Below are positions 1-9,618 of a DNA stretch of 64,000 bases, piece after piece. The DNA lies in NCBI GenBank assembly GCA_011911785.1, contig GCA_011911785.1_4084.1; one strand, written 5' to 3'. The notes beneath the pieces are model-generated. The model worked only from the letters and a program-made list of their open reading frames with translations, was not told the origin of the DNA and ran no database searches. This DNA is from a phage. The position numbers and the translations under genes were made by a program. Position 1 is the stretch's first letter; the number at the start of each line of letters is the position of its first letter.

Positions 1-202
1 AATAACAGTACAGAAACGTTGTAAGCCAGTACAACATAGGGGTTTGTTTTGGGTGGAGTTGAGTGCATTAGCATTGAATTCAGAGTTGAGTACTGACTTC
101 TTCTATTCAGATGCGAAGCCAGAAAACTTTGGATATTTGAATGGTAAGTTAGTTAAGCTTGATTATGGAGATTAATATGTACGCATTGTATAATAAAGAA
201 AA

Positions 203-235
203 GGGTTGACTTCAGTCAGCCCTTTTTGCTATAAT
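203..235 (+). promoter_or_regulatory. Type-A terminator/promoter cassette: hairpin GGGTTGACTTCAGTCAGCCC + T-run, -35 TTGACT inside the stem, -10 TATAAT
   Basis: Read directly; near-identical cassette recurs at 931, 2356, 33296, 36728, 40039, 43119 and degenerate at 27554. Confidence 0.6.
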
Positions 236-990: not shown

Positions 991-1227
991 ATGAAACTAT
1001 CTTTTATACGTTTAGCAGAATTCTTCGGTACTGATGTAATTACTCTACAACAAATCGCAGATAATACATCATTAACTACGCAAGAAGTACTTGACTTAGA
1101 TGTAATTAAGAGCGATAATACTTCCATTGATTTCAAAGAAGGTCTTGTCGAAAAAGATAAGATTCAAGCTAAGATTCATGGTGCTGGGCGGGTTCAGTAC
1201 TGGAAAGGAGTTTTAAGTAATGTTTGA
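991..1227 (+). CDS. Hypothetical protein (78 aa)
   Basis: ORF after type-A promoter with RBS GAGG. Confidence 0.45.
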   Translation: MKLSFIRLAEFFGTDVITLQQIADNTSLTTQEVLDLDVIKSDNTSIDFKEGLVEKDKIQAKIHGAGRVQYWKGVLSNV

Positions 1228-2347
1228 ACAGTACTATTTTAATGAAGATGGTGAAAAAGTTTATTTTTATGAAGAGCATGGAATGCTTTTTGAGTGGATG
1301 AAAGCCGAAGATATAAATTTTGTAAAAAAATCCAACATTGCTCAAGATCCTATTAGTATTATGGGTGAAATAAATGATCCAAGAGTTCTTGGATTCTATA
1401 TCAATAGATCACAAGATTATATATCTAAATCAAAAACCAAACTTGTAGTGAATAACGATGGTATGTTAGTTATTGGAGCCACCTGCACGAATTTTATTAG
1501 GCAGGGATTTAATGGGAAGATTTTTTACAATATTATTAATATTCCATATTACAGCCTTAATCATATTAGTGTCATCAACAAAAAATATGGTTATGATAAA
1601 TTTACTTATAGTGGAATAACTTCGTTTAACTCTACACTTCCTAGTAGAACTAAAATTGAAGTAGTATGTAATGATTGTGGTGATATAAAAAAACCCACAA
1701 TTACTGACTTAGCTACTGGTAAAATTGGTTGTCAAGAATGCACGAAACAAACTTTAGGTGAATTTATAAAAAAATCACATCTTATACACGGAAATAAGTA
1801 TGATTATTCTTTATATGACTACATTAACAACCAAGTAACCTCTATTATAATATGCAAAGAACATGGTGAATTTCAACAAACACCAAATTCACATCTGTCT
1901 GGTTCTGGTTGTCCCACGTGTGCAGTAAAAGGATTTAAAACTTCCAAGCCTGGAAGATTTTATATTCACAATGATTATGCAAAAAAATCGGATAAAGCTG
2001 GTATTACAAACAAAACTATTAAAGCAAGATTAAGTCCACAAAACTTATCTTATAAAAAAATATATAAAGTAGATAATTTTTGGAGTAATGAAATTTCCAT
2101 TTTATTTCATAAGAATGTGGGTGGGAAACTTGCTAGAGAATTGGAAATAATAATACATACAATTGCGTTATGTGGTAAACTATATAATAAAGGTTATTAT
2201 GAAAAGGGAGATGGTTGCACAGAAACATTCAATAATATCCATCGTCCTAAAGTTAATGAAGCCATTAAAAAATTCTTAGCTGAACATGAAGGAGAATACA
2301 TCATTGAACGTGATATCAATGGTATTTTTGGTGAAGTGATTGTATAA
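1220..2347 (+). CDS. Hypothetical protein with two zinc-ribbon-like Cys/His clusters (375 aa)
   Basis: CNDCG..GCQEC and CKEHG..GCPTC motifs; start overlaps upstream stop. Confidence 0.5.
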   Translation: MFEQYYFNEDGEKVYFYEEHGMLFEWMKAEDINFVKKSNIAQDPISIMGEINDPRVLGFYINRSQDYISKSKTKLVVNNDGMLVIGATCTNFIRQGFNGKIFYNIINIPYYSLNHISVINKKYGYDKFTYSGITSFNSTLPSRTKIEVVCNDCGDIKKPTITDLATGKIGCQECTKQTLGEFIKKSHLIHGNKYDYSLYDYINNQVTSIIICKEHGEFQQTPNSHLSGSGCPTCAVKGFKTSKPGRFYIHNDYAKKSDKAGITNKTIKARLSPQNLSYKKIYKVDNFWSNEISILFHKNVGGKLARELEIIIHTIALCGKLYNKGYYEKGDGCTETFNNIHRPKVNEAIKKFLAEHEGEYIIERDINGIFGEVIV

Positions 2348-2355
2348 AACAAAAA

Positions 2356-2387
2356 GGTTGACTTCGGTCAGCCCTTTTTGCTATAAT
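2356..2387 (+). promoter_or_regulatory. Type-A terminator/promoter cassette
   Basis: GGTTGACTTCGGTCAGCC hairpin + TTTTT + TATAAT upstream of ATPase gene. Confidence 0.6.
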
Positions 2388-2415
2388 CATATCATCAACT
2401 ACAGAGGGTAACGAA

Positions 2416-3189
2416 ATGAACCGTACAGAGAAAGCAATCCAAATCGAAAAGAACTTCAACTCCATGATGGCAGCACTGGAATGTCTTCTTGATACACAAA
2501 CTAACTCTATCAACTCTCTGATCGTTTCTGGCAAGGGTGGTGTTGGTAAAACTTTCAACGTTGACCAACGGTTGCAGAAAGCTGATGACAACTTTGAAAT
2601 CGACTACAAGAAAATCAGTGGCAAAGTAACTACTGTTGGTCTGTACGAAGCACTGTATCGTTCACGTCACGCTGCTTCAGTACTGTTACTTGATGATGTT
2701 GATATCTTCTCTGATGAGACGAATATTGATTTGCTTAAAGCTGTATTGGATACTTCTGAGAAGCGTGTAGTATCTTACGCTACTTCTGCTAAGTACCTGG
2801 AACAGCAGGGTATCCCTAAGCAGTTTGAATTCCGTGGTAAAGTAATCTTCCTGACTAACAAAAACCTGTCACAGATTGCTAAAGGTAAAAGCAGTTTAGC
2901 ACCACACATTGATGCACTGATCACTCGTAGTATCTTTGTTGACCTGCAACTGTTCACCAACGAAGAAGTGATGATTCACATTGAGAACATCATGAACAAA
3001 ACTAACATCCTTGAAAACAATGGTGTTAACAAAAATGGTTGTAAAGCAATCCTGAACTGGATGCTGAGCAATGAAGACCGTCTGCGTAGTCCTTCACTGC
3101 GTATGCCAGTACTGATCGCTGGTCTTTACAATAAATTCCCATACGACTGGGAATCAATGGCTGAAAATATGTTCCTGGAGAAAAATTAA
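2416..3189 (+). CDS. P-loop NTPase, AAA+-like ATPase (257 aa)
   Basis: Walker A GKGGVGKT, Walker B LLLDDVD, sensor-1-like FLTNKN. Confidence 0.6.
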   Translation: MNRTEKAIQIEKNFNSMMAALECLLDTQTNSINSLIVSGKGGVGKTFNVDQRLQKADDNFEIDYKKISGKVTTVGLYEALYRSRHAASVLLLDDVDIFSDETNIDLLKAVLDTSEKRVVSYATSAKYLEQQGIPKQFEFRGKVIFLTNKNLSQIAKGKSSLAPHIDALITRSIFVDLQLFTNEEVMIHIENIMNKTNILENNGVNKNGCKAILNWMLSNEDRLRSPSLRMPVLIAGLYNKFPYDWESMAENMFLEKN

Positions 3190-3216
3190 TTGATAACATA
3201 TAACATCGATAAGGTC

Positions 3217-3408
3217 ATGTTATTATATGCATGTATTAACATGATTGTCGTTTTAGTTAAAGTTTATAGATGGTTTCATACACTTGATATTGATACTGAA
3301 AAGGAGTATAATCCTCAAGAAGCATCTCTTGGATTAAAAATTATTGTTTTAATTAGCGTAGTATCCGTATACATGGTATTACTATCAACTATGATTAAGT
3401 TCACTTAA
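3217..3408 (+). CDS. Small hydrophobic membrane protein (63 aa; track start 3190 is TTG)
   Basis: Hydrophobic ORF; first ATG with AAGG upstream. Confidence 0.3.
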   Translation: MLLYACINMIVVLVKVYRWFHTLDIDTEKEYNPQEASLGLKIIVLISVVSVYMVLLSTMIKFT

Positions 3409-3418
3409 CGAGGAACAT

Positions 3419-3751
3419 ATGATTAATTTATTTTCAACTGAGGTTATGATTAAAATTACATTAGTATACATGTGTCTATTCGTATACTACCACGCTCTCA
3501 TCGGAATCTTGTGGTTCTTTAAGAAAGGTCGTCTTCTTGAGAAATTGTACCCAGACTATATGATATTGTATACAATCGTCCAGGGTGTAGGAATAGTACT
3601 GGGAATTCTAGTGCACTTGATATATTTGTTTGAACCACACCTTCCGTGTATTACACAATACATTGTATTCGGAACTACTATTATGTGGCTTGTAATGATG
3701 GGTGTGTATGGTCTGTATTTGTACAGGAAACGTATAGTGGGAGATTTCTAA
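3419..3751 (+). CDS. Small membrane protein, WFFKxx paralog group (110 aa)
   Basis: RBS GAGGA; hydrophobic; motif LWFFKKGRL. Confidence 0.5.
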   Translation: MINLFSTEVMIKITLVYMCLFVYYHALIGILWFFKKGRLLEKLYPDYMILYTIVQGVGIVLGILVHLIYLFEPHLPCITQYIVFGTTIMWLVMMGVYGLYLYRKRIVGDF

Positions 3752-4104
3752 TGCAAGAGGTTATTAAATGGTTGACAACCAGTGATATTGCTAGTACACT
3801 GAACTATGTACTCATTATCTTATATCCGTTTTTGATGGTTCTAAACTTCATTGGATGGTATTTCAAACGTCCAATTTACTACAAGATTAATAATTCAGAG
3901 TACTATGAAAGTGTTGTAATTGCAACCTCAATCACGTATACTATGGGTGCAGTTCTTACAGTCATAGGATTAGGTCAAGGTGATAATCTTAACTTTATGC
4001 TATGTACCTTTGTTATGATATGTATTCCAACACTAATTGTAATTCTATCGAATATTGTGTGGAAAAAAATGTTATTTGCACGCAACAAAATACCGGAGGC
4101 ATAA
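3751..4104 (+). CDS. Small membrane protein, paralog (117 aa)
   Basis: TAATG overlap with upstream stop; motif GWYFKRPIYY; track start 3646 rejected. Confidence 0.5.
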   Translation: MQEVIKWLTTSDIASTLNYVLIILYPFLMVLNFIGWYFKRPIYYKINNSEYYESVVIATSITYTMGAVLTVIGLGQGDNLNFMLCTFVMICIPTLIVILSNIVWKKMLFARNKIPEA

Positions 4105-4439
4105 TGGAGTACTTTATCAGTTTACTACCGTGGTACTTGAAAGTAAGTACAATTTACTACATCATTTCCGCTGGGTTTTATTTCTTGATGTGGTTCTTTA
4201 AACGTCCAATCAGTGAATTCATCGATAATCATCTGATGAGTTTTAAACTTCACTGCTGGTTTTGGTCATCGTCAGTGATGCCATTCATCCATTACGGAAT
4301 TATCAGTACTGGTAAACGTTCTAATGGTGAAATAATTTCCTTGGGTTTTTACTGGATATCGACTATTGTTTACATTGGTGTGCTTTTGTATCCATTTGTA
4401 GTTAAACTACGAAACTCTATCCCAGATCACAGGAAATAA
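4104..4439 (+). CDS. Small membrane protein, paralog (111 aa)
   Basis: RBS GGAGG; TAATG overlap; motif MWFFKRPISEF. Confidence 0.5.
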   Translation: MEYFISLLPWYLKVSTIYYIISAGFYFLMWFFKRPISEFIDNHLMSFKLHCWFWSSSVMPFIHYGIISTGKRSNGEIISLGFYWISTIVYIGVLLYPFVVKLRNSIPDHRK

Positions 4440-4440
4440 T

Positions 4441-4761
4441 ATGAAGATTGAATTGATTCTTTTCACAGTAAGTGCATTCTACTTTTGGGTTTGCTGGATT
4501 GGTTTTCTCTTTGCACTAAAACCATTTGACTTCTATGCAAAGCAGTGTAAAAATGCTGCTGTTGGTAATGTAGCTTTTACATTGCTTAGTACATTATGGG
4601 TAATACTGCTTATATTCAATCCACCTGATAATGATTTGGAAATGTCATTGTGTACATTATTTGCAGTCCTGTGTGTATTCGCAGCATTCTGTAGTTATAT
4701 TGGAAAGTTATGTTCTTTGGTATCAAATTTCCATCGTAAACAAAAAGATAAGAGGGTATAA
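4441..4761 (+). CDS. Small membrane protein (106 aa)
   Basis: Hydrophobic ORF, coupled in operon. Confidence 0.5.
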   Translation: MKIELILFTVSAFYFWVCWIGFLFALKPFDFYAKQCKNAAVGNVAFTLLSTLWVILLIFNPPDNDLEMSLCTLFAVLCVFAAFCSYIGKLCSLVSNFHRKQKDKRV

Positions 4762-5144
4762 TGTACACAACAATATATGTTATTCTTAATATCCTAAGTG
4801 CATGTCTAACAATAGGTGCATTAATATACATTGGAAAGTTCTTTTGTGTAAAGTTCGTCGAAGATGTGTATGAGGATATTGAATACGACTACGAATCTAA
4901 GTGCTTCTTCCATGTTGGATATATCATTTGCTTAGTAACTACTATCTTCACATGGATTGTATACGTATTCGGGATTGGAATCACTTCAATTGGTGAACCA
5001 GTACTGTGCATTATTGGATTAGTGTTTTCTTCAATATTCGGGTTATTGTTCATGATTATTCTTATGTATAATTTAATCTGTACTGCTATTGTTCCTTTCT
5101 TTTATGAAATTCACAATAACATTAAACGTAAGAAACGAGGTTAA
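4761..5144 (+). CDS. Small membrane protein (127 aa)
   Basis: TAATG overlap; multiple hydrophobic segments. Confidence 0.5.
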   Translation: MYTTIYVILNILSACLTIGALIYIGKFFCVKFVEDVYEDIEYDYESKCFFHVGYIICLVTTIFTWIVYVFGIGITSIGEPVLCIIGLVFSSIFGLLFMIILMYNLICTAIVPFFYEIHNNIKRKKRG

Positions 5145-5146
5145 TT

Positions 5147-5500
5147 ATGTTTTCTCCTGCTGGTCAAGTTATATTCATGTTATGTACACTGGTATTCTTT
5201 ATGTTATCTGTACTACTTGTGATGAAATTCTTTCACATGAAACCATTCAGTACTTGGTATGATAATATTGTGTACTATATTGGTAATGCTATAACACTCT
5301 TTTCAGTTGCATACTATTTCGGTTATTTTGCAATGCTATTTGGGTTATTACTTGAAGCTCGTGCATTGCTTGTAGCTGGTATGGTGGCAGATTTAATGTG
5401 TCTAACACTAGCCTGTATTGGATTTACTGTATGTATGTCGTTAACCATTTTTGACAAATTATGTAAACTACACAAACGTTTAGGTGAGAGGATGAAATAA
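5147..5500 (+). CDS. Small membrane protein (117 aa)
   Basis: Hydrophobic ORF with RBS. Confidence 0.5.
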   Translation: MFSPAGQVIFMLCTLVFFMLSVLLVMKFFHMKPFSTWYDNIVYYIGNAITLFSVAYYFGYFAMLFGLLLEARALLVAGMVADLMCLTLACIGFTVCMSLTIFDKLCKLHKRLGERMK

Positions 5501-5883
5501 TGACTTACCGTGATTACTTTTGTATTTTTGAAATTGCAGTATTCGCTTTAGGTTCAGTCTGGTTACTTCTATACTACTTCTGTATTAATCCAGTATTCAA
5601 TTGGGTTCGTCGTGCTGAACAAAGTAGTGCTGGACAAATAGCAGTTGTTATGGGTATGACATATTATATGTTCGCCGTAGCTTCTGTTGTTATTGAAGTA
5701 ATATTTGGTGGCATGAATGGTGATGATGGGGCAACGTTCTATGGATTCGTAACATTCTTTAGTGTGCTGATTCCGTGTGGTGCTCTTATTATTACTGCGT
5801 TCTATTGGCTATATCGTGGTGTTAAGAAGCTGGAATCAATTCACGTAGATATGCGTTCAAAACGAATGGGGATTGACAAATAA
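5500..5883 (+). CDS. Small membrane protein (127 aa)
   Basis: Start overlaps upstream stop; hydrophobic. Confidence 0.5.
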   Translation: MTYRDYFCIFEIAVFALGSVWLLLYYFCINPVFNWVRRAEQSSAGQIAVVMGMTYYMFAVASVVIEVIFGGMNGDDGATFYGFVTFFSVLIPCGALIITAFYWLYRGVKKLESIHVDMRSKRMGIDK

Positions 5884-6434
5884 TGAAACGAAGTTCTAAT
5901 GTCATTCGTGAACGATTTCGTAAAGTAAAAACTATTAAGTACGGGACTATTGCTCTTGTACTTAGTAGTACTTTTATTATGACAGGATGTGAACGCTCTG
6001 AAGATATTTCTGTATATCAGAATGTGGACCAATGTAAAAGAAGTGGTAGCAATCCGGTACAATGTGAAGATGATTATAAAAAAGCCCTAACTGAATCGGA
6101 AAAGGTAGCACCAAAATATAGTTCACAGAGTGATTGCTCAAGCGATTTTGGTAATCAATGTCAACAACATAGTTCGGGATTCTTTTGGATTCCAATCATG
6201 AGCGGGTTCCATAGTAGTGGTAATGGGTTTGCTAGTCAACCACTATACAACTCTAAAGGGAACTACTATGATGCTGGTGGTAACTCCTACGGTAGCAGTA
6301 CTGCAAAAGGTACAACACGTACTGTATCAAGTTCCGCATTAGCTCCAAAACCTCCTACAACGACCACAATCACCCGCAATGGGTTTGGGTCTTCAATAGC
6401 CAGAAGTGCCGCTCACACGAGTTCTGGTGGATAA
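5883..6434 (+). CDS. Putative lipoprotein (183 aa), possibly YgiB/DUF1190-like
   Basis: Signal peptide + lipobox FIMTGC; Ser/Gly/Thr-rich C-terminus; YgiB resemblance is from memory, unverified. Confidence 0.5.
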   Translation: MKRSSNVIRERFRKVKTIKYGTIALVLSSTFIMTGCERSEDISVYQNVDQCKRSGSNPVQCEDDYKKALTESEKVAPKYSSQSDCSSDFGNQCQQHSSGFFWIPIMSGFHSSGNGFASQPLYNSKGNYYDAGGNSYGSSTAKGTTRTVSSSALAPKPPTTTTITRNGFGSSIARSAAHTSSGG

Positions 6435-6435
6435 T

Positions 6436-6465
6436 AAAAAAGCCCACTTAATGTGGGCTTTTTGT
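6436..6465. terminator. Bidirectional intrinsic terminator between convergent genes
   Basis: AAAAAGCCCAC-ttaat-GTGGGCTTTTT; A-run and T-run flank the hairpin. Confidence 0.75.
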
Positions 6466-9398
6466 TATTTGTGTTTTATGTGTAAAGTATCTAATATTGT
6501 ATTGAACAATGATTTAGCAGAAATCATGATTACTTGATCAAAATCTTTAGTATAAGAAATATTAGCAGTACTGGAAGAATCTTTCACCTCATCCGGTAAT
6601 GCATCAAACTCTTCTTTTTCCATAATCTTTTCAAGTTCTTCACGAGAAATGGCTTTTACGTTTTCAATAGTCCTTAGTTGTATATTATAATCTTTATAAT
6701 ACGAAACTAAGTTCGTTGCGTATGAACCATCTTTAGATGCTGTTCCAGTAAAATCATAACATCCTGTATCAGTACTAACCCAATCGATTTTCCCTGAGCT
6801 ACCACTATATACACCTTTGTTAAATTTAATATTAACAACATCGCCAATAGTTTTCAATATACCACCTTTACATTCATTAAATGCGTTTAATTGATAACTT
6901 GTAGTCATATAGAATTTCGGTTCTAATGTAACAGTATCACCTACAGTTGCTTTCATGTCAGAAACACTTAAGAACAATTCATTAAATCCTTTTGAATAAG
7001 TCTTGGTAATTGTTGTTCCATCCCTGTTAGTTACTGTGTATTCTAAGTCCAATTCACAAATACTATTCAATGATAAGTAAGGGATATCAAATTTATCAGT
7101 ACTAGCATCATAAGGACATCTTGATGATGGTAGTATACCAGTAGGGTTTGGTACGTATTGAACTTTTGTTAACTCATACCCGCTTGCATTCGCTGGTGTA
7201 ACTGTAATAGACGGTGTAGATATTCCTTTCATTCCACAGAAGTATATGTTATCTGGAAAATCATTTATTACGAAGTCAGTGACAGGAATATCATAAGTAT
7301 CTTTATCAGTCCAATTGAGAACAACATTAGAACTGGTTGGATCAACAATATGTTCACTAGAACCACAGAAATATACTGATTTGGTATTAGTAATCATTAG
7401 TAATGTTTTGGATGATGAGTTCAATTCAAGAACATCTTTCACTTCAAGACCAGATGGTAATGTCAATGGTAACTTCGTGAATGATGTTAAATCTTGTTCA
7501 TCTTTAACACCACTAGTCCCCGCCGGAAACTTACCTGAACCATAGAAAACACCTTTATTCGTCATGAAATACATGAACGGGGTTGATGTTCCTTTGTCAA
7601 ATAGTTTAATGTCATCACATGTTAAACCATCAGGTAAACTTACTTTAGATGGAGTTCTATAAACACCAGGCTTAATACCACCTTCACCATTACTTACATC
7701 ACCTAGTACATATAAATCTTTACCTAGTTTCAAGAACATTGATTTATTTTTAGCACACAAGAATGTATCATATGATTTATCATCAATTGGTAGCTTGGTA
7801 TATTCGGTGTATGTAGGTATTGAATCATCAATCCACGAACTATCACCACTAATGTAAATGTGATTGTTTCTGTCAATATAATATGAATACACATCAGTAC
7901 TGTTCATATATAAAGCATTTAGTGCATTTGTTTTCACTAAGTGATTGAACTTAAGAACTTGTTTTCCATCGTACTTATGGGAGTTGACACCAATATCACC
8001 ATTCAGGCTACTACCAAATGAATATATGTGACCACGTGGTAATAGAACTTGAACACCACTTTTGGTTAAATTATATTTGGAGTGCAAGAGATCGTTATAT
8101 ACAACTCTAACTTTCTTAAAGATATCAGTACATTCAATCCACGATTTAGATGGTGTACCATCCATTCCTATTATTGCTGGATCACCATAATAATAAGCTT
8201 TATTTTCATATGATATTTTAAAAGATGATTTACCATCTTTTGTATTAGCACTGAAATACACATCTTTACTATCTTTAATTGGATAAGTACTATTCTCTAC
8301 AAAAGTATTATATGAGATATCGTTGTTAGAACTATTAAGAACAAAAGAAGTAGATGTACTATTGGACTTATAGACTGCTACGGAAGATGTATCACTGAAA
8401 TCAATTTTAGTGAACGTATCTTTGTATGTTTCGTTTAATAATCCTACATAAAAAACATCAGTGCCATCAGTAACGAATATAGCATTTCTATTATTACATA
8501 AAGAAGTAATATTTTTTACTACTTTATTTGAATTATAGTTCGGTAACTTCTTTAATCCACGAACAAAATTATCACAAATAATACCAGTACCATAGAAGTT
8601 ATAATCTTTATCACAGTATATAAATGCTGTATCATATGGTGAAGTACTTAAATTCTTATAGAATGGGAATGGAGTGAATGTGAATTGTAGAACATTACGC
8701 AATTCCCCTACTGTCTCTGTTGGGAATTGTCTGTTTTTATTATTTCCAAGAAAAACAACTCTATCTGTTAGGTATGTGTACATAATTCCATATGGTTTTA
8801 CGTACAAGTCATTATATCCTAATGATAATTTAGTTGGTGATGTTAGTGGACCGGAATTTATTTTATTTTGGTTAAAAGAAAATTCATTTGAATTATAACC
8901 AGCCCCATATGTATTACCATCAGTACTTAAATAATATACAGTAGCTTCCCCTGCTCCAAGAAAAGTCTTTACATCAGTTGCTAACGTTTTTTTGAAAGTT
9001 GGATAAAATTTATTATATGTTCCCGTTCCCATCATCAGTTCACCATTGCGGTTATGACCACGAGCATATAGAATACCTTTGTCTGTATCTAAGAAGAACA
9101 TACCATTATATGTTTTGTAAATCTTACCTTTTGTAATATCGAAATTGGAAAAATCATCACTAATATCAATGAATATCGTCTCAAGGTTATTTTCAAGGGA
9201 GTTTAGAGATTTACCACAATACCATACTGAGTTATCTTTTTTAACAGCAACACAACCACACGGACTGGCATCAAAATATGTTACATCGGAAAGAACCAGA
9301 GATAAGTTCTTTGTACTGCAATAATTATCCATTGCATATAAATCGGAATCTTTAAGTATATATACGGAATTCCCTACCGCTTTAATCGAATTTATCAT
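6465..9398 (-). CDS. Large beta-propeller-like repeat protein, RCC1-like (977 aa), lacks the conserved N-terminus of the downstream paralogs
   Basis: Start moved to ATG with RBS GAGGAT (track start is TTG at 9488); Gly-rich repeats e.g. GHNRNGELMMGTG. Confidence 0.55.
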   Translation of the reverse strand: MINSIKAVGNSVYILKDSDLYAMDNYCSTKNLSLVLSDVTYFDASPCGCVAVKKDNSVWYCGKSLNSLENNLETIFIDISDDFSNFDITKGKIYKTYNGMFFLDTDKGILYARGHNRNGELMMGTGTYNKFYPTFKKTLATDVKTFLGAGEATVYYLSTDGNTYGAGYNSNEFSFNQNKINSGPLTSPTKLSLGYNDLYVKPYGIMYTYLTDRVVFLGNNKNRQFPTETVGELRNVLQFTFTPFPFYKNLSTSPYDTAFIYCDKDYNFYGTGIICDNFVRGLKKLPNYNSNKVVKNITSLCNNRNAIFVTDGTDVFYVGLLNETYKDTFTKIDFSDTSSVAVYKSNSTSTSFVLNSSNNDISYNTFVENSTYPIKDSKDVYFSANTKDGKSSFKISYENKAYYYGDPAIIGMDGTPSKSWIECTDIFKKVRVVYNDLLHSKYNLTKSGVQVLLPRGHIYSFGSSLNGDIGVNSHKYDGKQVLKFNHLVKTNALNALYMNSTDVYSYYIDRNNHIYISGDSSWIDDSIPTYTEYTKLPIDDKSYDTFLCAKNKSMFLKLGKDLYVLGDVSNGEGGIKPGVYRTPSKVSLPDGLTCDDIKLFDKGTSTPFMYFMTNKGVFYGSGKFPAGTSGVKDEQDLTSFTKLPLTLPSGLEVKDVLELNSSSKTLLMITNTKSVYFCGSSEHIVDPTSSNVVLNWTDKDTYDIPVTDFVINDFPDNIYFCGMKGISTPSITVTPANASGYELTKVQYVPNPTGILPSSRCPYDASTDKFDIPYLSLNSICELDLEYTVTNRDGTTITKTYSKGFNELFLSVSDMKATVGDTVTLEPKFYMTTSYQLNAFNECKGGILKTIGDVVNIKFNKGVYSGSSGKIDWVSTDTGCYDFTGTASKDGSYATNLVSYYKDYNIQLRTIENVKAISREELEKIMEKEEFDALPDEVKDSSSTANISYTKDFDQVIMISAKSLFNTILDTLHIKHK

Positions 9399-9618
9399 GT
9401 TTATATCCTCATAAATTGATACCAATTCTAATGTATTTACCCACTTAAAGTACAAAAAATGATCAATTAAATGGGGAATCTTTAACAAATGAATTCATGA
9501 TGTACTTGATGAATTGCCCATACCAACGGATTCCCCAGTCCCAGCATACCACATGGTATTATCGAACTTTTTTATCATTGTAGTATCATAACCACACCAA
9601 ACATCATCAACATTAGTA

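What the first reader, a model, noticed from the sequence alone, without database searches (positions are those of the whole stretch)
3217..6434. Operon of eight small membrane proteins, some paralogous, ending in a lipoprotein
Genes at 3419, 3751 and 4104 share a W-(F/Y)-F-K-(R/K)-P motif at the end of a transmembrane segment and are linked by TAATG overlaps. The terminal gene encodes a lipobox protein (..FIMTGC) whose overall pattern resembles the enterobacterial YgiB/DUF1190 lipoprotein family as I recall it. Small membrane proteins in T4-type early regions commonly act in superinfection exclusion or envelope remodelling.
Basis: partly seen in the sequence, partly recalled or inferred. Interest (0 to 1): 0.5.

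Follow-up and report, generated by a model that had tools for sequence, protein, structure and literature searches.

The report
Jumbo-phage membrane-protein operon with YgiB-like lipoprotein
This is a real, probably early-expressed operon of a giant E. coli phage that encodes seven diverged copies of one small three-helix membrane protein and ends in a phage copy of the bacterial envelope lipoprotein YgiB; the parts can be identified and related phages have the same layout, but what the operon does for the phage is still untested.

Summary
Window 3217-6434 carries nine tightly packed + strand genes. Five of the eight junctions are TAATG stop/start overlaps.

The window is an Asteriusvirus, a Rak2-like jumbo phage, 98.8% identical here to Escherichia phage A4.

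The last gene (5883-6434) is a true DUF1190 member:
- Pfam E 2e-31.
- 42% identity to E. coli YgiB.
- It has the lipobox Cys36, four invariant Cys and a C-terminal GG.

All seven genes from 3419 to 5883 belong to one jumbo-phage-specific 3-TM family, predicted N-out/C-in. It has no Pfam model and no bacterial relatives.

The operon starts further upstream, at a T4 NrdC.10 homologue (2416-3189). That gene sits behind a repeated terminator-plus-sigma70-promoter cassette. The operon ends at a terminator at 6437-6463.

The order NrdC.10, 3-TM array, DUF1190 is conserved in RaK2, GAP32, CBB, Yen9-04 and XbC2. The two parts also occur separately: 121Q has the array only, and Ea35-70 and Merlin have the lipoprotein only.

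Homologues were already annotated as DUF1190 or YgiB-like lipoproteins (GAP32, Moon, Merlin). Function is inferred only; early envelope maintenance or modification is most likely. A link to DUF350/YjfL was tested and rejected. Interest is modest.

The parts
2354..2387 (+). Terminator-plus-promoter cassette. The hairpin GGTTGAC-TTCG-GTCAGCC is followed by a T-run. The -35 TTGACT (2358-2363) lies inside the stem and TGcTATAAT supplies the -10 (ends 2387).
   Evidence: The promoter scan scores it 11/12 with an extended -10, and a terminator-like hairpin lies at 2356-2373. The same 34-nt element recurs at 202 and 931 in the window, where 0 matches are expected by chance. It is conserved upstream of the nrdC.10 homologue in 121Q and RaK2.
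2416..3189 (+). First gene of the unit: a T4 NrdC.10 homologue, 257 aa, a soluble P-loop protein (GKGGVGKT).
   Evidence: 40% identity and E 2e-67 to T4 NrdC.10. PHROG 1250 E 1e-99. Weak AAA_16 hit. It has the same position in RaK2, GAP32, CBB, Yen9-04 and metagenomic contigs.
3217..3408 (+). g0: an orphan hydrophobic peptide of 63 aa with 2 predicted TM segments. It would be 72 aa if it starts at TTG 3190, as annotated in phage A4.
   Evidence: ORF and hydropathy. Seen here only in phage A4: the other loci examined do not have it at this position, and it has no Pfam, PHROG, NCBIfam or PADLOC hit. It scores only 9.7 bits against the 3-TM family profile, which is inconclusive.
3419..3751 (+). 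g1: 3-TM family paralogue, 110 aa, with WFFKKG at the cytoplasmic end of TM1.
   Evidence: PHROG 19454. Orthologues in 121Q and RaK2. Hit by the family profile built without window sequences, E 3e-4.
3751..4104 (+). g2: 3-TM family paralogue, 117 aa, with WYFKRP.
   Evidence: PHROG 19046 plus cross-hits to the PHROG of g3. phmmer links it to g3 and to GAP32 paralogues. The AF2 model has three helices at 12-37, 49-74 and 80-111.
4104..4439 (+). g3: 3-TM family paralogue, 111 aa, with WFFKRP. It is the most conserved member.
   Evidence: PHROG 27396 E 9e-45. tblastn finds it in 45 phage records: 32 Escherichia, 4 Salmonella and 9 Klebsiella. Its middle helix is less hydrophobic than in the others.
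4441..4761 (+). g4: 3-TM family paralogue, 106 aa.
   Evidence: PHROG 33258. Family profile E 1.8e-8. The 121Q orthologue is split into two ORFs. It shows 0 synonymous and 5 non-synonymous codon differences against A4.
4761..5144 (+). g5: 3-TM family paralogue, 127 aa.
   Evidence: PHROG 26405, with a cross-hit to the PHROG of g7. It sits in the main phmmer cluster. It is still hit by a profile built only from the Mimasvirus and Eneladusvirus loci.
5147..5500 (+). g6: 3-TM family paralogue, 117 aa.
   Evidence: It sits in the main phmmer cluster. It has a 121Q orthologue. The non-window profile gives E 1e-7.
5500..5883 (+). g7: 3-TM family paralogue, 127 aa.
   Evidence: PHROG 27618. Family profile E 2.3e-7. 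Its weak Pfam DUF350 hit (E 0.0036) did not survive testing.
5883..6434 (+). g8: DUF1190 (YgiB-type) prolipoprotein, 183 aa. It has a long basic n-region, the h-region GTIALVLSSTFIM, the lipobox IMTG|C36 and Glu at +2. It also has four invariant Cys (51, 61, 85, 93) and a C-terminal GG.
   Evidence: Pfam PF06693 E 2.2e-31. PHROG 3739. NCBIfam PRK11653 gives 150 bits, below the equivalog cutoff of 223. 42% identity to YgiB and 27% to YjfM. Invariant columns. Lipobox and GG counts. 13 synonymous and 2 non-synonymous codon differences against A4.
6437..6463 (.). Intrinsic terminator hairpin AAAAAGCCCAC-TTAAT-GTGGGCTTTTT, flanked by A and T runs, between the convergent genes g8 (+) and the 1007-aa ORF (-).
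   Evidence: Terminator scan: 11 pairs followed by a T-rich tail. Sequence read directly.

Best explanation
What is shown.
- Region 2354-6463 is one transcription unit of an Asteriusvirus jumbo phage. It starts at a sigma70-type promoter built into a repeated terminator-promoter cassette and ends at a strong intrinsic terminator.
- It encodes, in order: a T4 NrdC.10-type P-loop protein; an orphan 2-TM peptide; seven anciently diverged paralogues of one jumbo-phage-specific small membrane protein; and a YgiB-type DUF1190 lipoprotein.
- The seven paralogues have three predicted TM helices. They carry an aromatic-basic motif just after TM1 and a basic C-terminal tail. Most are translationally coupled through TAATG overlaps.

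What is inferred about location.
- The positive-inside rule puts the paralogues N-out and C-in, so the motif and the tail face the cytoplasm.
- g8 is exported, lipidated at Cys36 and cleaved by signal peptidase II. It has Glu rather than Asp at +2, like bacterial YgiB, so it should be passed by Lol to the outer membrane. Most Rak2-like homologues have Asp at +2 followed by Asp or Glu, and would stay in the inner membrane.

What is inferred about function.
- The unit is probably expressed early by host RNA polymerase and acts on the host envelope.
- The lipoprotein gives the infected cell a phage-made copy of a Cpx-regulated envelope-stress lipoprotein, at a time when host gene expression is presumably shut down. 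Alternatively it perturbs the pathway in which host YgiB works.
- The 3-TM proteins load the inner membrane with a fixed set of distinct small proteins.
- The array and the lipoprotein each occur without the other in related phages. They are therefore more likely neighbours in an early envelope-directed gene block than obligate subunits of one machine.
For: Identity of the phage and the genes:
-.

DUF1190 membership and closeness to YgiB:
-.
- An NJ tree places all phage copies on the YgiB side rather than the YjfM side.

Single 3-TM family:
- phmmer single linkage, with zero hits among shuffled sequences.
- A profile of the 27-member cluster recovers members of every other orthologue group at E 1e-8 to 3e-3. 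No reversed or shuffled decoy appears among the listed hits.
- A profile built without window sequences hits exactly the seven ORFs among 388 window ORF segments.
- Topology is supported by charge distribution and by the AF2 model.

Restriction to jumbo phages:
- 25 hits among 5.8 billion proteins.
- 76 cluster representatives among 1.84 billion proteins. All are 81-128 aa.

Conserved module order:
- RaK2, GAP32, CBB, Yen9-04 and XbC2, plus metagenomic contigs.

Separability of the two parts:
- 121Q gp233 is not DUF1190 (hhalign probability 0.1%).
- 32 Escherichia records have the g3 gene, but at most 5 have DUF1190.
- Ea35-70, SA002 and Merlin have DUF1190 without the array.

Promoter and terminator:
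-.
- In CBB, most RpoD-like promoters cluster upstream of CBB_390-546, a block that its authors suspect is early and involved in host takeover (PMC5259590). I did not confirm that the CBB module lies inside that range.

Biology of host YgiB:
- Cpx-dependent expression and stress-fitness defects (bioRxiv 10.1101/2022.08.05.503015).
- Part of the tolC-ygiBC operon (PMC11762307).
- Overexpression lowers persister survival about tenfold, which the authors discuss in terms of envelope remodelling (PMC13435647).
- Found in outer-membrane vesicles (PMC7973035).

Purifying selection:
-.
Against: - No experiment or homology assigns any function to the 3-TM family or to NrdC.10.
- The molecular function of YgiB itself is unknown.
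- Early timing rests only on a promoter consensus and on a published inference for a relative.
- Lipoprotein processing and outer-membrane sorting come from sequence rules, not from a dedicated predictor or an assay. The lipobox has Met at -3.
- The phage lacks the ATP-grasp partner (YgiC/YjfC) that accompanies DUF1190 in E. coli and in the PspA-linked operons described in the literature. It may therefore not do what YgiB does.
- Conserved synteny across four genera could still mean the parts cooperate.
Confidence: 0.5

Rival explanations
1. Superinfection exclusion or receptor masking. The inner-membrane proteins would block DNA entry from later-arriving phages, as T4 Imm does. The lipoprotein would inactivate an outer-membrane receptor or channel, as T5 Llp and Cor do. 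TolC is a conceivable target because host ygiB sits in the tolC operon.
For: - The unit is probably expressed early.
- The proteins are predicted to lie in the envelope.
- Small early membrane proteins and lipoproteins are the classic Sie effectors (established knowledge of T4 Imm/Sp and T5 Llp).
- DUF1190 genes were taken up or kept by several unrelated groups of Enterobacterales phages. That pattern fits a generally useful accessory gene.
- Copy number of the array varies between genera, from about 4 to 9.
Against: - There is no sequence similarity to Imm, Sp, SieB, Llp or Cor. The only trace is a SieB hit at E 0.055 in 1 of 47 family members, which is noise.
- Individual paralogues keep 1:1 orthologues across genera and are under purifying selection. 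That is unlike fast arms-race genes.
- Deleting ygiBC does not affect TolC localisation, folding or activity (PMC11762307).
Confidence: 0.2
2. One membrane-associated machine. The NrdC.10 P-loop ATPase would dock on the conserved basic cytoplasmic tails of a hetero-oligomer of the seven 3-TM paralogues. The lipoprotein would be its periplasmic partner.
For: - The gene order NrdC.10, array, DUF1190 is conserved in four genera and in metagenomic contigs.
- The genes are translationally coupled.
- Each paralogue is kept as a distinct orthologue.
- The family has conserved cytoplasmic motifs.
- Most Rak2-like DUF1190 copies carry Asp at +2, which would hold them at the inner membrane next to the array.
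Against: - T4 has NrdC.10 without the array.
- 121Q-type phages have the array without DUF1190.
- Ea35-70, SA002 and Merlin have DUF1190 without the array.
- The copy in this window has Glu at +2, which predicts outer-membrane sorting.
Confidence: 0.1
3. Lysis or lysis-timing genes. The 3-TM proteins, predicted N-out/C-in with charged C-tails, would be class I holin or antiholin-like. The lipoprotein would act as an o-spanin.
For: The predicted topology, the size (106-127 aa) and the basic C-terminal tail match the textbook description of class I holins. The last gene encodes a lipoprotein.
Against: - None of the 47 family members hits a holin family in Pfam.
- Seven conserved paralogues would be unprecedented for a holin.
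- In relatives, the SAR-type endolysin is a gene with a very different number (CBB_187, GAP32 gp180, 121Q gp532; PMC5259590), whereas this module is 121Q genes 223-233.
- The unit has a sigma70-type promoter and no late ATAAATA-type motif.
- g8 is a 183-aa homologue of a bacterial housekeeping lipoprotein. There is no i-spanin partner gene.
Confidence: 0.06

Closest known systems
E. coli YgiB (DUF1190/UPF0441, PF06693; tolC-ygiB-ygiC operon)
   Same: - 42% identity over the full length.
- A conserved basic n-region (MKR...FRK) and the lipobox Cys.
- Glu at +2.
- Four invariant Cys, the W-x-P-x-M-x-G and QPL motifs, TR-G-FG, and a terminal GG.
   Different: - It is 40 residues shorter and lacks the Q/A-rich insert.
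- It scores 150 bits, below the NCBIfam equivalog cutoff of 223.
- It is encoded by a phage, next to membrane-protein genes rather than tolC.
- It has no ygiC-type ATP-grasp partner.
- It has Met at lipobox position -3.
DUF1190 lipoproteins of other phages (GAP32_529, RaK2 gp218, CBB gp432, K64-1 'outer membrane lipoprotein', and the 'YgiB-like lipoprotein' of Moon and Merlin)
   Same: - The same family (45-57% identity to Rak2-like copies and about 36% to Moon and Merlin).
- In Rak2-like phages, the same position at the end of the NrdC.10-array module.
- Already annotated as DUF1190 or as a lipoprotein in GenBank and in PMC4319498.
   Different: - The window and A4 copy has Cys-Glu-Arg after the lipobox. 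Most Rak2-like copies have Cys-Asp followed by Asp or Glu, the classical Lol-avoidance signal.
- A4 annotates it only as a hypothetical protein.
- Most other Asteriusviruses, including 121Q, lack it.
Bacterial yjfL (DUF350) and yjfM (DUF1190) gene pair in PspA-linked operons
   Same: A small multi-pass membrane protein gene sits directly upstream of a DUF1190 lipoprotein gene.
   Different: - The phage membrane proteins are not DUF350. Only 1 of 47 members gives a sub-threshold hit. hhalign against YjfL gives 3% probability.
- The phage proteins have 3 TM helices rather than 4.
- g8 is nearer to YgiB than to YjfM.
GAP32 and CBB '3-transmembrane membrane proteins' (PHROGs 19454, 19046, 27396, 33258, 26405, 27618)
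   Same: g1-g7 are members of the same set. The GAP32 annotators already noted 3 TM helices using TMHMM and Phobius.
   Different: Databases split them into many small families of unknown function. Here they are shown to form one family.
T4 NrdC.10
   Same: The first gene of the unit is 40% identical over 241 residues and shares the P-loop.
   Different: - The window protein lacks the first 70 or so residues of the T4 protein.
- In T4 the gene is followed by unrelated genes. NrdC.7, a predicted membrane protein, is not related to the array.

Membership tests
DUF1190 / YgiB family (PF06693) | Match to the family profile above the curated threshold | tested here: met
   Pfam gives E 2.2e-31 and 109.8 bits against a cutoff of 22, covering profile positions 2-155 of 159.
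DUF1190 / YgiB family (PF06693) | YgiB equivalog level (NCBIfam PRK11653 cutoff) | tested here: not met
   150.5 bits against a cutoff of 223. It is a family member but does not reach the YgiB equivalog score.
DUF1190 / YgiB family (PF06693) | N-terminal lipoprotein signal with a conserved lipobox cysteine | tested here: met
   VLSSTFIMTG-C36 fits the PS51257 residue classes. Cys36 is present in at least 90% of 71 homologues. Two caveats apply: Met at -3, and Cys one position beyond the PROSITE window. No SignalP or LipoP was available.
DUF1190 / YgiB family (PF06693) | Four conserved cysteines in the mature N-terminal domain and a C-terminal Gly-Gly | tested here: met
   C51, C61, C85 and C93 are invariant in 71 sequences. 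GG is the last dipeptide in 70 of 71.
DUF1190 / YgiB family (PF06693) | Bacterial context: adjacent ATP-grasp peptide-spermidine ligase (YgiC/YjfC) | tested here: not met
   tblastn with YgiC finds homologues in Acinetobacter, Aeromonas and Pseudomonas phages among others. None of the listed organism groups is Escherichia, Klebsiella, Cronobacter or Erwinia, though three minor groups were not named. In E. coli the pair is adjacent.
DUF350 (YjfL) membrane proteins | Profile match of the phage 3-TM proteins to DUF350 or YjfL | tested here: not met
   Only g7 hits, at E 0.0036 and 17.8 bits against a cutoff of 26. That is 1 of 47 family members. hhalign of the family against E. coli YjfL gives 3.3% probability.
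Class I holins | Three TM helices, N-out/C-in, charged C-terminal tail | tested here: met
   Hydropathy and the positive-inside pattern and the AF2 helices. These are predictions only.
Class I holins | Sequence membership in a holin family, and linkage to an endolysin and late expression | tested here: not met
   No holin Pfam hit in 47 members. No endolysin is annotated in the A4 stretch flanking the operon. The endolysin of relatives has a very different gene number. The promoter is sigma70-type.
Spanins (o-spanin lipoprotein) | A small outer-membrane lipoprotein gene embedded in, overlapping or adjacent to an i-spanin gene in a lysis cassette | tested here: not met
   g8 is 183 aa and is a DUF1190 homologue. 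The upstream gene g7 is a 3-TM protein and not a type II membrane protein. The downstream gene is convergent.
Known superinfection-exclusion or anti-defence proteins (Imm, Sp, SieB, Llp/Cor; PADLOC models) | Sequence similarity | tested here: not met
   The Pfam scan of 47 members gives only SieB at E 0.055 in one member. PADLOC has no hit for g0-g8. Function itself cannot be tested with these tools.
T4 NrdC.10 family (PHROG 1250) | Full-length similarity to T4 NrdC.10, including the P-loop | tested here: met
   40% identity and E 2e-67. PHROG 1250 E 1.1e-99.

The most novel reading that the evidence does not exclude
The phage YgiB copy may plug into the host pathway formed by YgiB/YjfM and the YgiC/YjfC ligases. 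DUF1190 proteins end in a near-invariant Gly-Gly, and in E. coli each sits next to an ATP-grasp peptide-spermidine ligase whose physiological substrate is unknown. If the DUF1190 C-terminus is that substrate, or a regulator of the ligase, then a phage copy that arrives without its own ligase would act as a substitute or a decoy. It would reprogramme polyamine-linked envelope-stress signalling during infection. The seven 3-TM paralogues, and possibly NrdC.10, would form the inner-membrane side of the same takeover device.
Probability: 0.06. Interest if true: 0.7.

Novelty: new member of a known kind. Interest (0 to 1): 0.3.

Why it matters
- It gives a correct annotation for nine genes that A4 lists as hypothetical proteins, or in one case wrongly as endonuclease V.
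- It shows that six or more PHROGs of unknown function are one jumbo-phage-specific 3-TM family, arranged in a conserved array.
- It documents that a host envelope-stress lipoprotein, YgiB, has been kept by many Enterobacterales phages without its bacterial enzyme partner.
- If the lipoprotein proves to maintain or rewire the envelope of infected cells, it would offer a handle on the unknown function of YgiB/DUF1190 and on how jumbo phages manage the host envelope.
- As it stands, this is a tidy annotation result rather than a surprise.

Tried and rejected
1. DUF350/YjfL link. The weak hit of g7 suggested the phage might mirror the bacterial yjfL-yjfM pair. Rejected: only 1 of 47 members hits, and hhalign gives 3% probability.
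2. T4 NrdC.7, a predicted membrane protein, as a T4 counterpart of the array. hhalign gives 0.3% probability.
3. 121Q gp233, in the same terminal position, as a diverged DUF1190. hhalign gives 0.1% probability.
5. Fold of g2. It forms three helices at pLDDT 66. Foldseek against BFVD finds nothing at E below 1.
6. PADLOC and NCBIfam give nothing for the membrane proteins.
7. g0 as a truncated member of the 3-TM family. It scores 9.7 bits, which is inconclusive.
8. Presence of the region in complete E. coli genomes or in plasmids. No match.
9. Literature on the function of this module, or on a Sie role in jumbo phages. Nothing specific was found. The papers by Dhamdhere and Zgurskaya (2010) and Pederick et al. 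(2023) are not held.
10. My comparison of the nrdC.10 gene with A4 used the wrong offset and should be ignored.

Full report
**1. What is there**

Between 3190 and 6434 the + strand carries nine consecutive ORFs with Shine-Dalgarno sequences.
- g0: 3217-3408 (63 aa; 72 aa from TTG 3190).
- g1: 3419-3751.
- g2: 3751-4104.
- g3: 4104-4439.
- g4: 4441-4761.
- g5: 4761-5144.
- g6: 5147-5500.
- g7: 5500-5883.
- g8: 5883-6434.

Five of the eight junctions are TAATG stop/start overlaps. The other gaps are 1, 2 and 10 nt.

In g1 it reads WFFKKG. These are the only three matches in the six-frame translation of the window.

The region is 98.8% identical to Escherichia phage A4. A4 is a 355-kb phage of the genus Asteriusvirus, which belongs to the Rak2-like jumbo phages. 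A4 annotates these genes as hypothetical proteins, and the g0 homologue as 'endonuclease V'.

Against A4, g0-g8 differ at 21 synonymous and 14 non-synonymous codons. For g8 alone the counts are 13 and 2. The genes are therefore under purifying selection.

**2. The lipoprotein**

g8 matches Pfam DUF1190 at E 2.2e-31, well above the gathering score. It is 42% identical to E. coli YgiB over its full length (E 1e-51). It is only 27% identical to the paralogue YjfM. It scores 150 bits on the NCBIfam YgiB equivalog model, below that model's cutoff of 223. It is thus a family member on the YgiB branch but not a scored equivalog.

In an alignment of 71 bacterial and phage homologues:
- The four cysteines C51, C61, C85 and C93 are invariant.
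- The lipobox Cys36 is present in at least 90% of sequences.
- 70 of 71 sequences end in Gly-Gly.

The signal region VLSSTFIMTG-C36 fits the PROSITE lipobox residue classes. It has Met at -3, and its Cys lies one position past the PROSITE window.

Residue +2 is Glu, as in all the bacterial YgiB-type sequences aligned. Most Rak2-like phage copies have Cys-Asp followed by Asp or Glu. By the established Lol-avoidance rule, this predicts an outer-membrane location for the window protein. It predicts inner-membrane retention for most of its phage orthologues. This step is an inference.

**3. The small membrane proteins**

g1, g2 and g4-g7 each show three hydrophobic segments. The middle helix of g3 is weaker. 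K/R residues concentrate in loop 1 and the C-terminal tail, and acidic residues in loop 2. This gives an N-out/C-in topology. An AF2 model of g2 has three long helices.

Each gene has a 1:1 orthologue in 121Q and/or RaK2.

- All-against-all phmmer of 47 such proteins from seven phages links 27 of them, including g2, g5 and g6, at E below 1e-3. It links 39 at E below 1e-2. Shuffled sets gave no hits at all.
- A profile of the 27-member cluster finds members of every remaining group: the g1 orthologues (best 1.2e-8), g4 (1.8e-8), g7 (2.3e-7) and g3 (3.5e-7). The RaK2/GAP32-type last array gene scores 2e-5 to 3e-3. No reversed or shuffled decoy appears among the listed hits.
- A profile built without any window sequence hits exactly the seven ORFs among 388 ORF segments of the window.

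The shared features are an aromatic-basic motif just after TM1 and a basic C-terminal tail. In the Mimasvirus-type members these read TYADYYT and RKYFGRKRNKL.

The family is small and confined to phages.
- A word-indexed search of 5.8 billion proteins finds 25 members.
- A full HMMER scan of 1.84 billion cluster representatives finds 76. All are 81-128 aa.
- The precomputed Pfam column is empty for all 25 hits. The only hits that carry a source name are phage proteins, and none is named as bacterial.

PHROGs splits the family into at least six families of unknown function.

g0 is an orphan seen here only in A4. Its relation to the family is unresolved.

**4. Extent of the operon and its conservation**

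The gene just upstream (2416-3189) is a homologue of T4 NrdC.10, with 40% identity and E 2e-67. It is a P-loop protein of unknown function.

In front of it lies a 34-nt element, AAGGTTGACTTCGGTCAGCCCTTTTTGCTATAAT. It is a terminator hairpin whose stem contains a -35 TTGACT, followed by a T-run and an extended -10.
- The same element occurs at 202 and 931 in the window. Chance expectation is 0.
- It is conserved upstream of the NrdC.10 homologue in 121Q and RaK2.

A strong terminator follows g8 at 6437-6463. The unit is therefore 2354-6463.

An internal promoter-like site at 3284-3312 lies inside g0 and was not tested.

For the relative CBB, the authors report that most RpoD-like promoters cluster upstream of CBB_390-546. 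They suspect that block is early and involved in host takeover (PMC5259590). I did not confirm that the CBB module lies within that range.

The order NrdC.10, 3-TM array, DUF1190, followed by convergent RCC1-like genes, is found in:
- RaK2 (Alcyoneusvirus).
- GAP32, CBB and XbC2 (Mimasvirus).
- Yen9-04 (Eneladusvirus).
- Metagenomic contigs.

The array holds about 4 to 9 copies in these phages.

The two parts are separable.
- In 121Q the array ends in an unrelated 219-aa protein.
- 32 Escherichia phage records carry g3, but at most 5 Escherichia records have a DUF1190 match.
- Ea35-70, SA002 and the T4-like Merlin and Moon carry DUF1190 with no array.

**5. Comparison with what is known**

Homologues of g8 were already annotated as DUF1190 in GAP32 and CBB. 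K64-1, Muenster and Yen9-04 list theirs as a lipoprotein. Moon and Merlin list a 'YgiB-like lipoprotein' whose role in infection is stated to be unknown (PMC4319498).

What is known about bacterial YgiB:
- It is encoded in the tolC-ygiB-ygiC operon and predicted to be an outer-membrane lipoprotein. Its function is unknown, and deleting it does not affect TolC (PMC11762307).
- In Citrobacter rodentium its expression depends on Cpx. Mutants have fitness defects under pH and peroxide stress.
- In E. coli, overexpression lowers persister survival about tenfold, which the authors discuss in terms of envelope remodelling.

In other bacterial operons, DUF1190 sits beside a DUF350 membrane protein and an ATP-grasp ligase within PspA-linked gene clusters (PMC11237479; E. 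coli yjfIJKLMC).

I tested whether the phage array is the DUF350 counterpart. It is not.

The phage also lacks the ligase partner. YgiC-like genes occur in other phage groups, such as Acinetobacter and Aeromonas phages, and the listed groups do not include DUF1190-carrying genera apart from Salmonella. At least three of those six Salmonella records are bacterial ygiB-ygiC DNA in the collection.

**6. Interpretation**

Shown:
- The gene structure.
- The family assignments.
- The single-family status of g1-g7.
- The conserved module order and the separability of its parts.
- The promoter and terminator elements.

Inferred:
- Early expression.
- Inner-membrane insertion of g1-g7 with N-out/C-in topology.
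- Lipidation of g8 and its sorting to the outer membrane.
- An envelope-directed role.

I favour, at about 0.5, an early envelope maintenance or modification block. In it the lipoprotein stands in for, or interferes with, host YgiB, and the 3-TM proteins act separately. The rivals are:
- Superinfection exclusion (0.2).
- A single NrdC.10-array-lipoprotein machine (0.1).
- Lysis control (0.06).

None of these can be settled by sequence analysis.

**7. Verdict**

The object is a further member of a gene module that already exists, and is partly annotated, in related jumbo phages.

The new points are modest:
- The membrane proteins are unified into one family.
- The operon boundaries are defined, with a repeated terminator-promoter cassette.
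- The array and the lipoprotein are separable.
- Residue +2 differs between this copy (Glu) and most phage orthologues (Asp).

Interest is 0.3.

Noticed in passing
window 202-235, 931-964, 2354-2387 (+): A 34-nt cassette occurs three times, with at most one mismatch to the 34-nt query (itself based on the copy at 2354). It combines an intrinsic-terminator hairpin with a sigma70-type promoter, and the -35 lies inside the stem. It sits at the start of successive + strand units and is conserved in 121Q and RaK2. It looks like the standard punctuation of this phage group's presumed early region.
   Followed up: partly
L001 6001-6219 (A4_227), equivalent to window 3190-3408: Phage A4 annotates the 72-aa, 2-TM orphan peptide g0 as 'endonuclease V'. 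It has no hit in any family library searched here. This is very likely an annotation error; the real denV-like gene is probably A4_222.
   Followed up: partly
window 6465-9488 (-): The convergent downstream gene is one intact 1007-aa ORF here. Its counterparts in related phages are annotated as RCC1-like or 'DNA condensation' proteins. In A4 the same stretch is annotated as two overlapping CDS (A4_236 and A4_237), which suggests a frameshift or sequencing difference in one of the two genomes.
   Followed up: no
L003 6359-6674 (121Q genes 228 and 229): The 121Q orthologue of g4 is split into two short ORFs of 59 and 55 aa, and both match g4. It is probably a pseudogene or a sequencing frameshift. 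121Q also has two g1-like copies (genes 224 and 225).
   Followed up: no
window 4441-4761 (g4): Against phage A4, g4 has 5 non-synonymous and 0 synonymous codon differences. g8 has 2 non-synonymous and 13 synonymous. The numbers are small, but g4 may be evolving under relaxed or diversifying selection.
   Followed up: no
window 5991-5996 (codons for Cys36 and Glu37); homologues in L002, L004, L005, L007-L010: The residue after the lipobox Cys is Glu in the window and A4 copy, in Merlin and in the bacterial YgiB-type sequences aligned. It is Asp, mostly followed by Asp or Glu (the classical inner-membrane retention signal), in most Rak2-like and Ea35-70-like phage copies. The closest relative outside the A4 lineage (P0027, 66% identity) also has Asp, so Glu looks derived in the A4 lineage.
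   Followed up: partly
window 5883-5945 and 6426-6431; alignment A7: DUF1190 proteins keep an unusually long and conserved n-region in a presumably cleaved signal peptide (MKRTKNI..FRK). They also end in a near-invariant Gly-Gly (70 of 71). Their neighbour in E. coli is a peptide-spermidine ligase whose substrate is unknown, so the C-terminus may have a role of its own.
   Followed up: no
phage collection: YgiC-like ATP-grasp ('glutathionylspermidine synthase') genes occur in 144 phage-collection records, mainly from Acinetobacter, Aeromonas and Pseudomonas phages plus phiRSL1. By the listed organism names, the only genus shared with the DUF1190-carrying records is Salmonella, and at least three of those six records are bacterial DNA (two Salmonella chromosome contigs and a 1.5-kb ygiB-ygiC fragment). 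Phages seem to take one partner of the bacterial pair or the other, not both.
   Followed up: no
phage collection: AGRM01000002.1, AFYI01000007.1, OR851682.1 and OR845559.1: Several records in the phage collection that match DUF1190 or YgiC are bacterial DNA. They include Salmonella chromosome contigs and 1.5-2.1-kb 'phage' records that carry ygiB-ygiC. Counts by organism should be read with that in mind.
   Followed up: no
window 1220-2347 (+): The 375-aa ORF between two promoter cassettes has a weak treble-clef zinc-finger hit (DUF4379). Its size varies between relatives: 565 aa in A4 and 487 aa in 121Q, where it is annotated as an endonuclease. It may be a mobile homing-endonuclease-type insert.
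   Followed up: no
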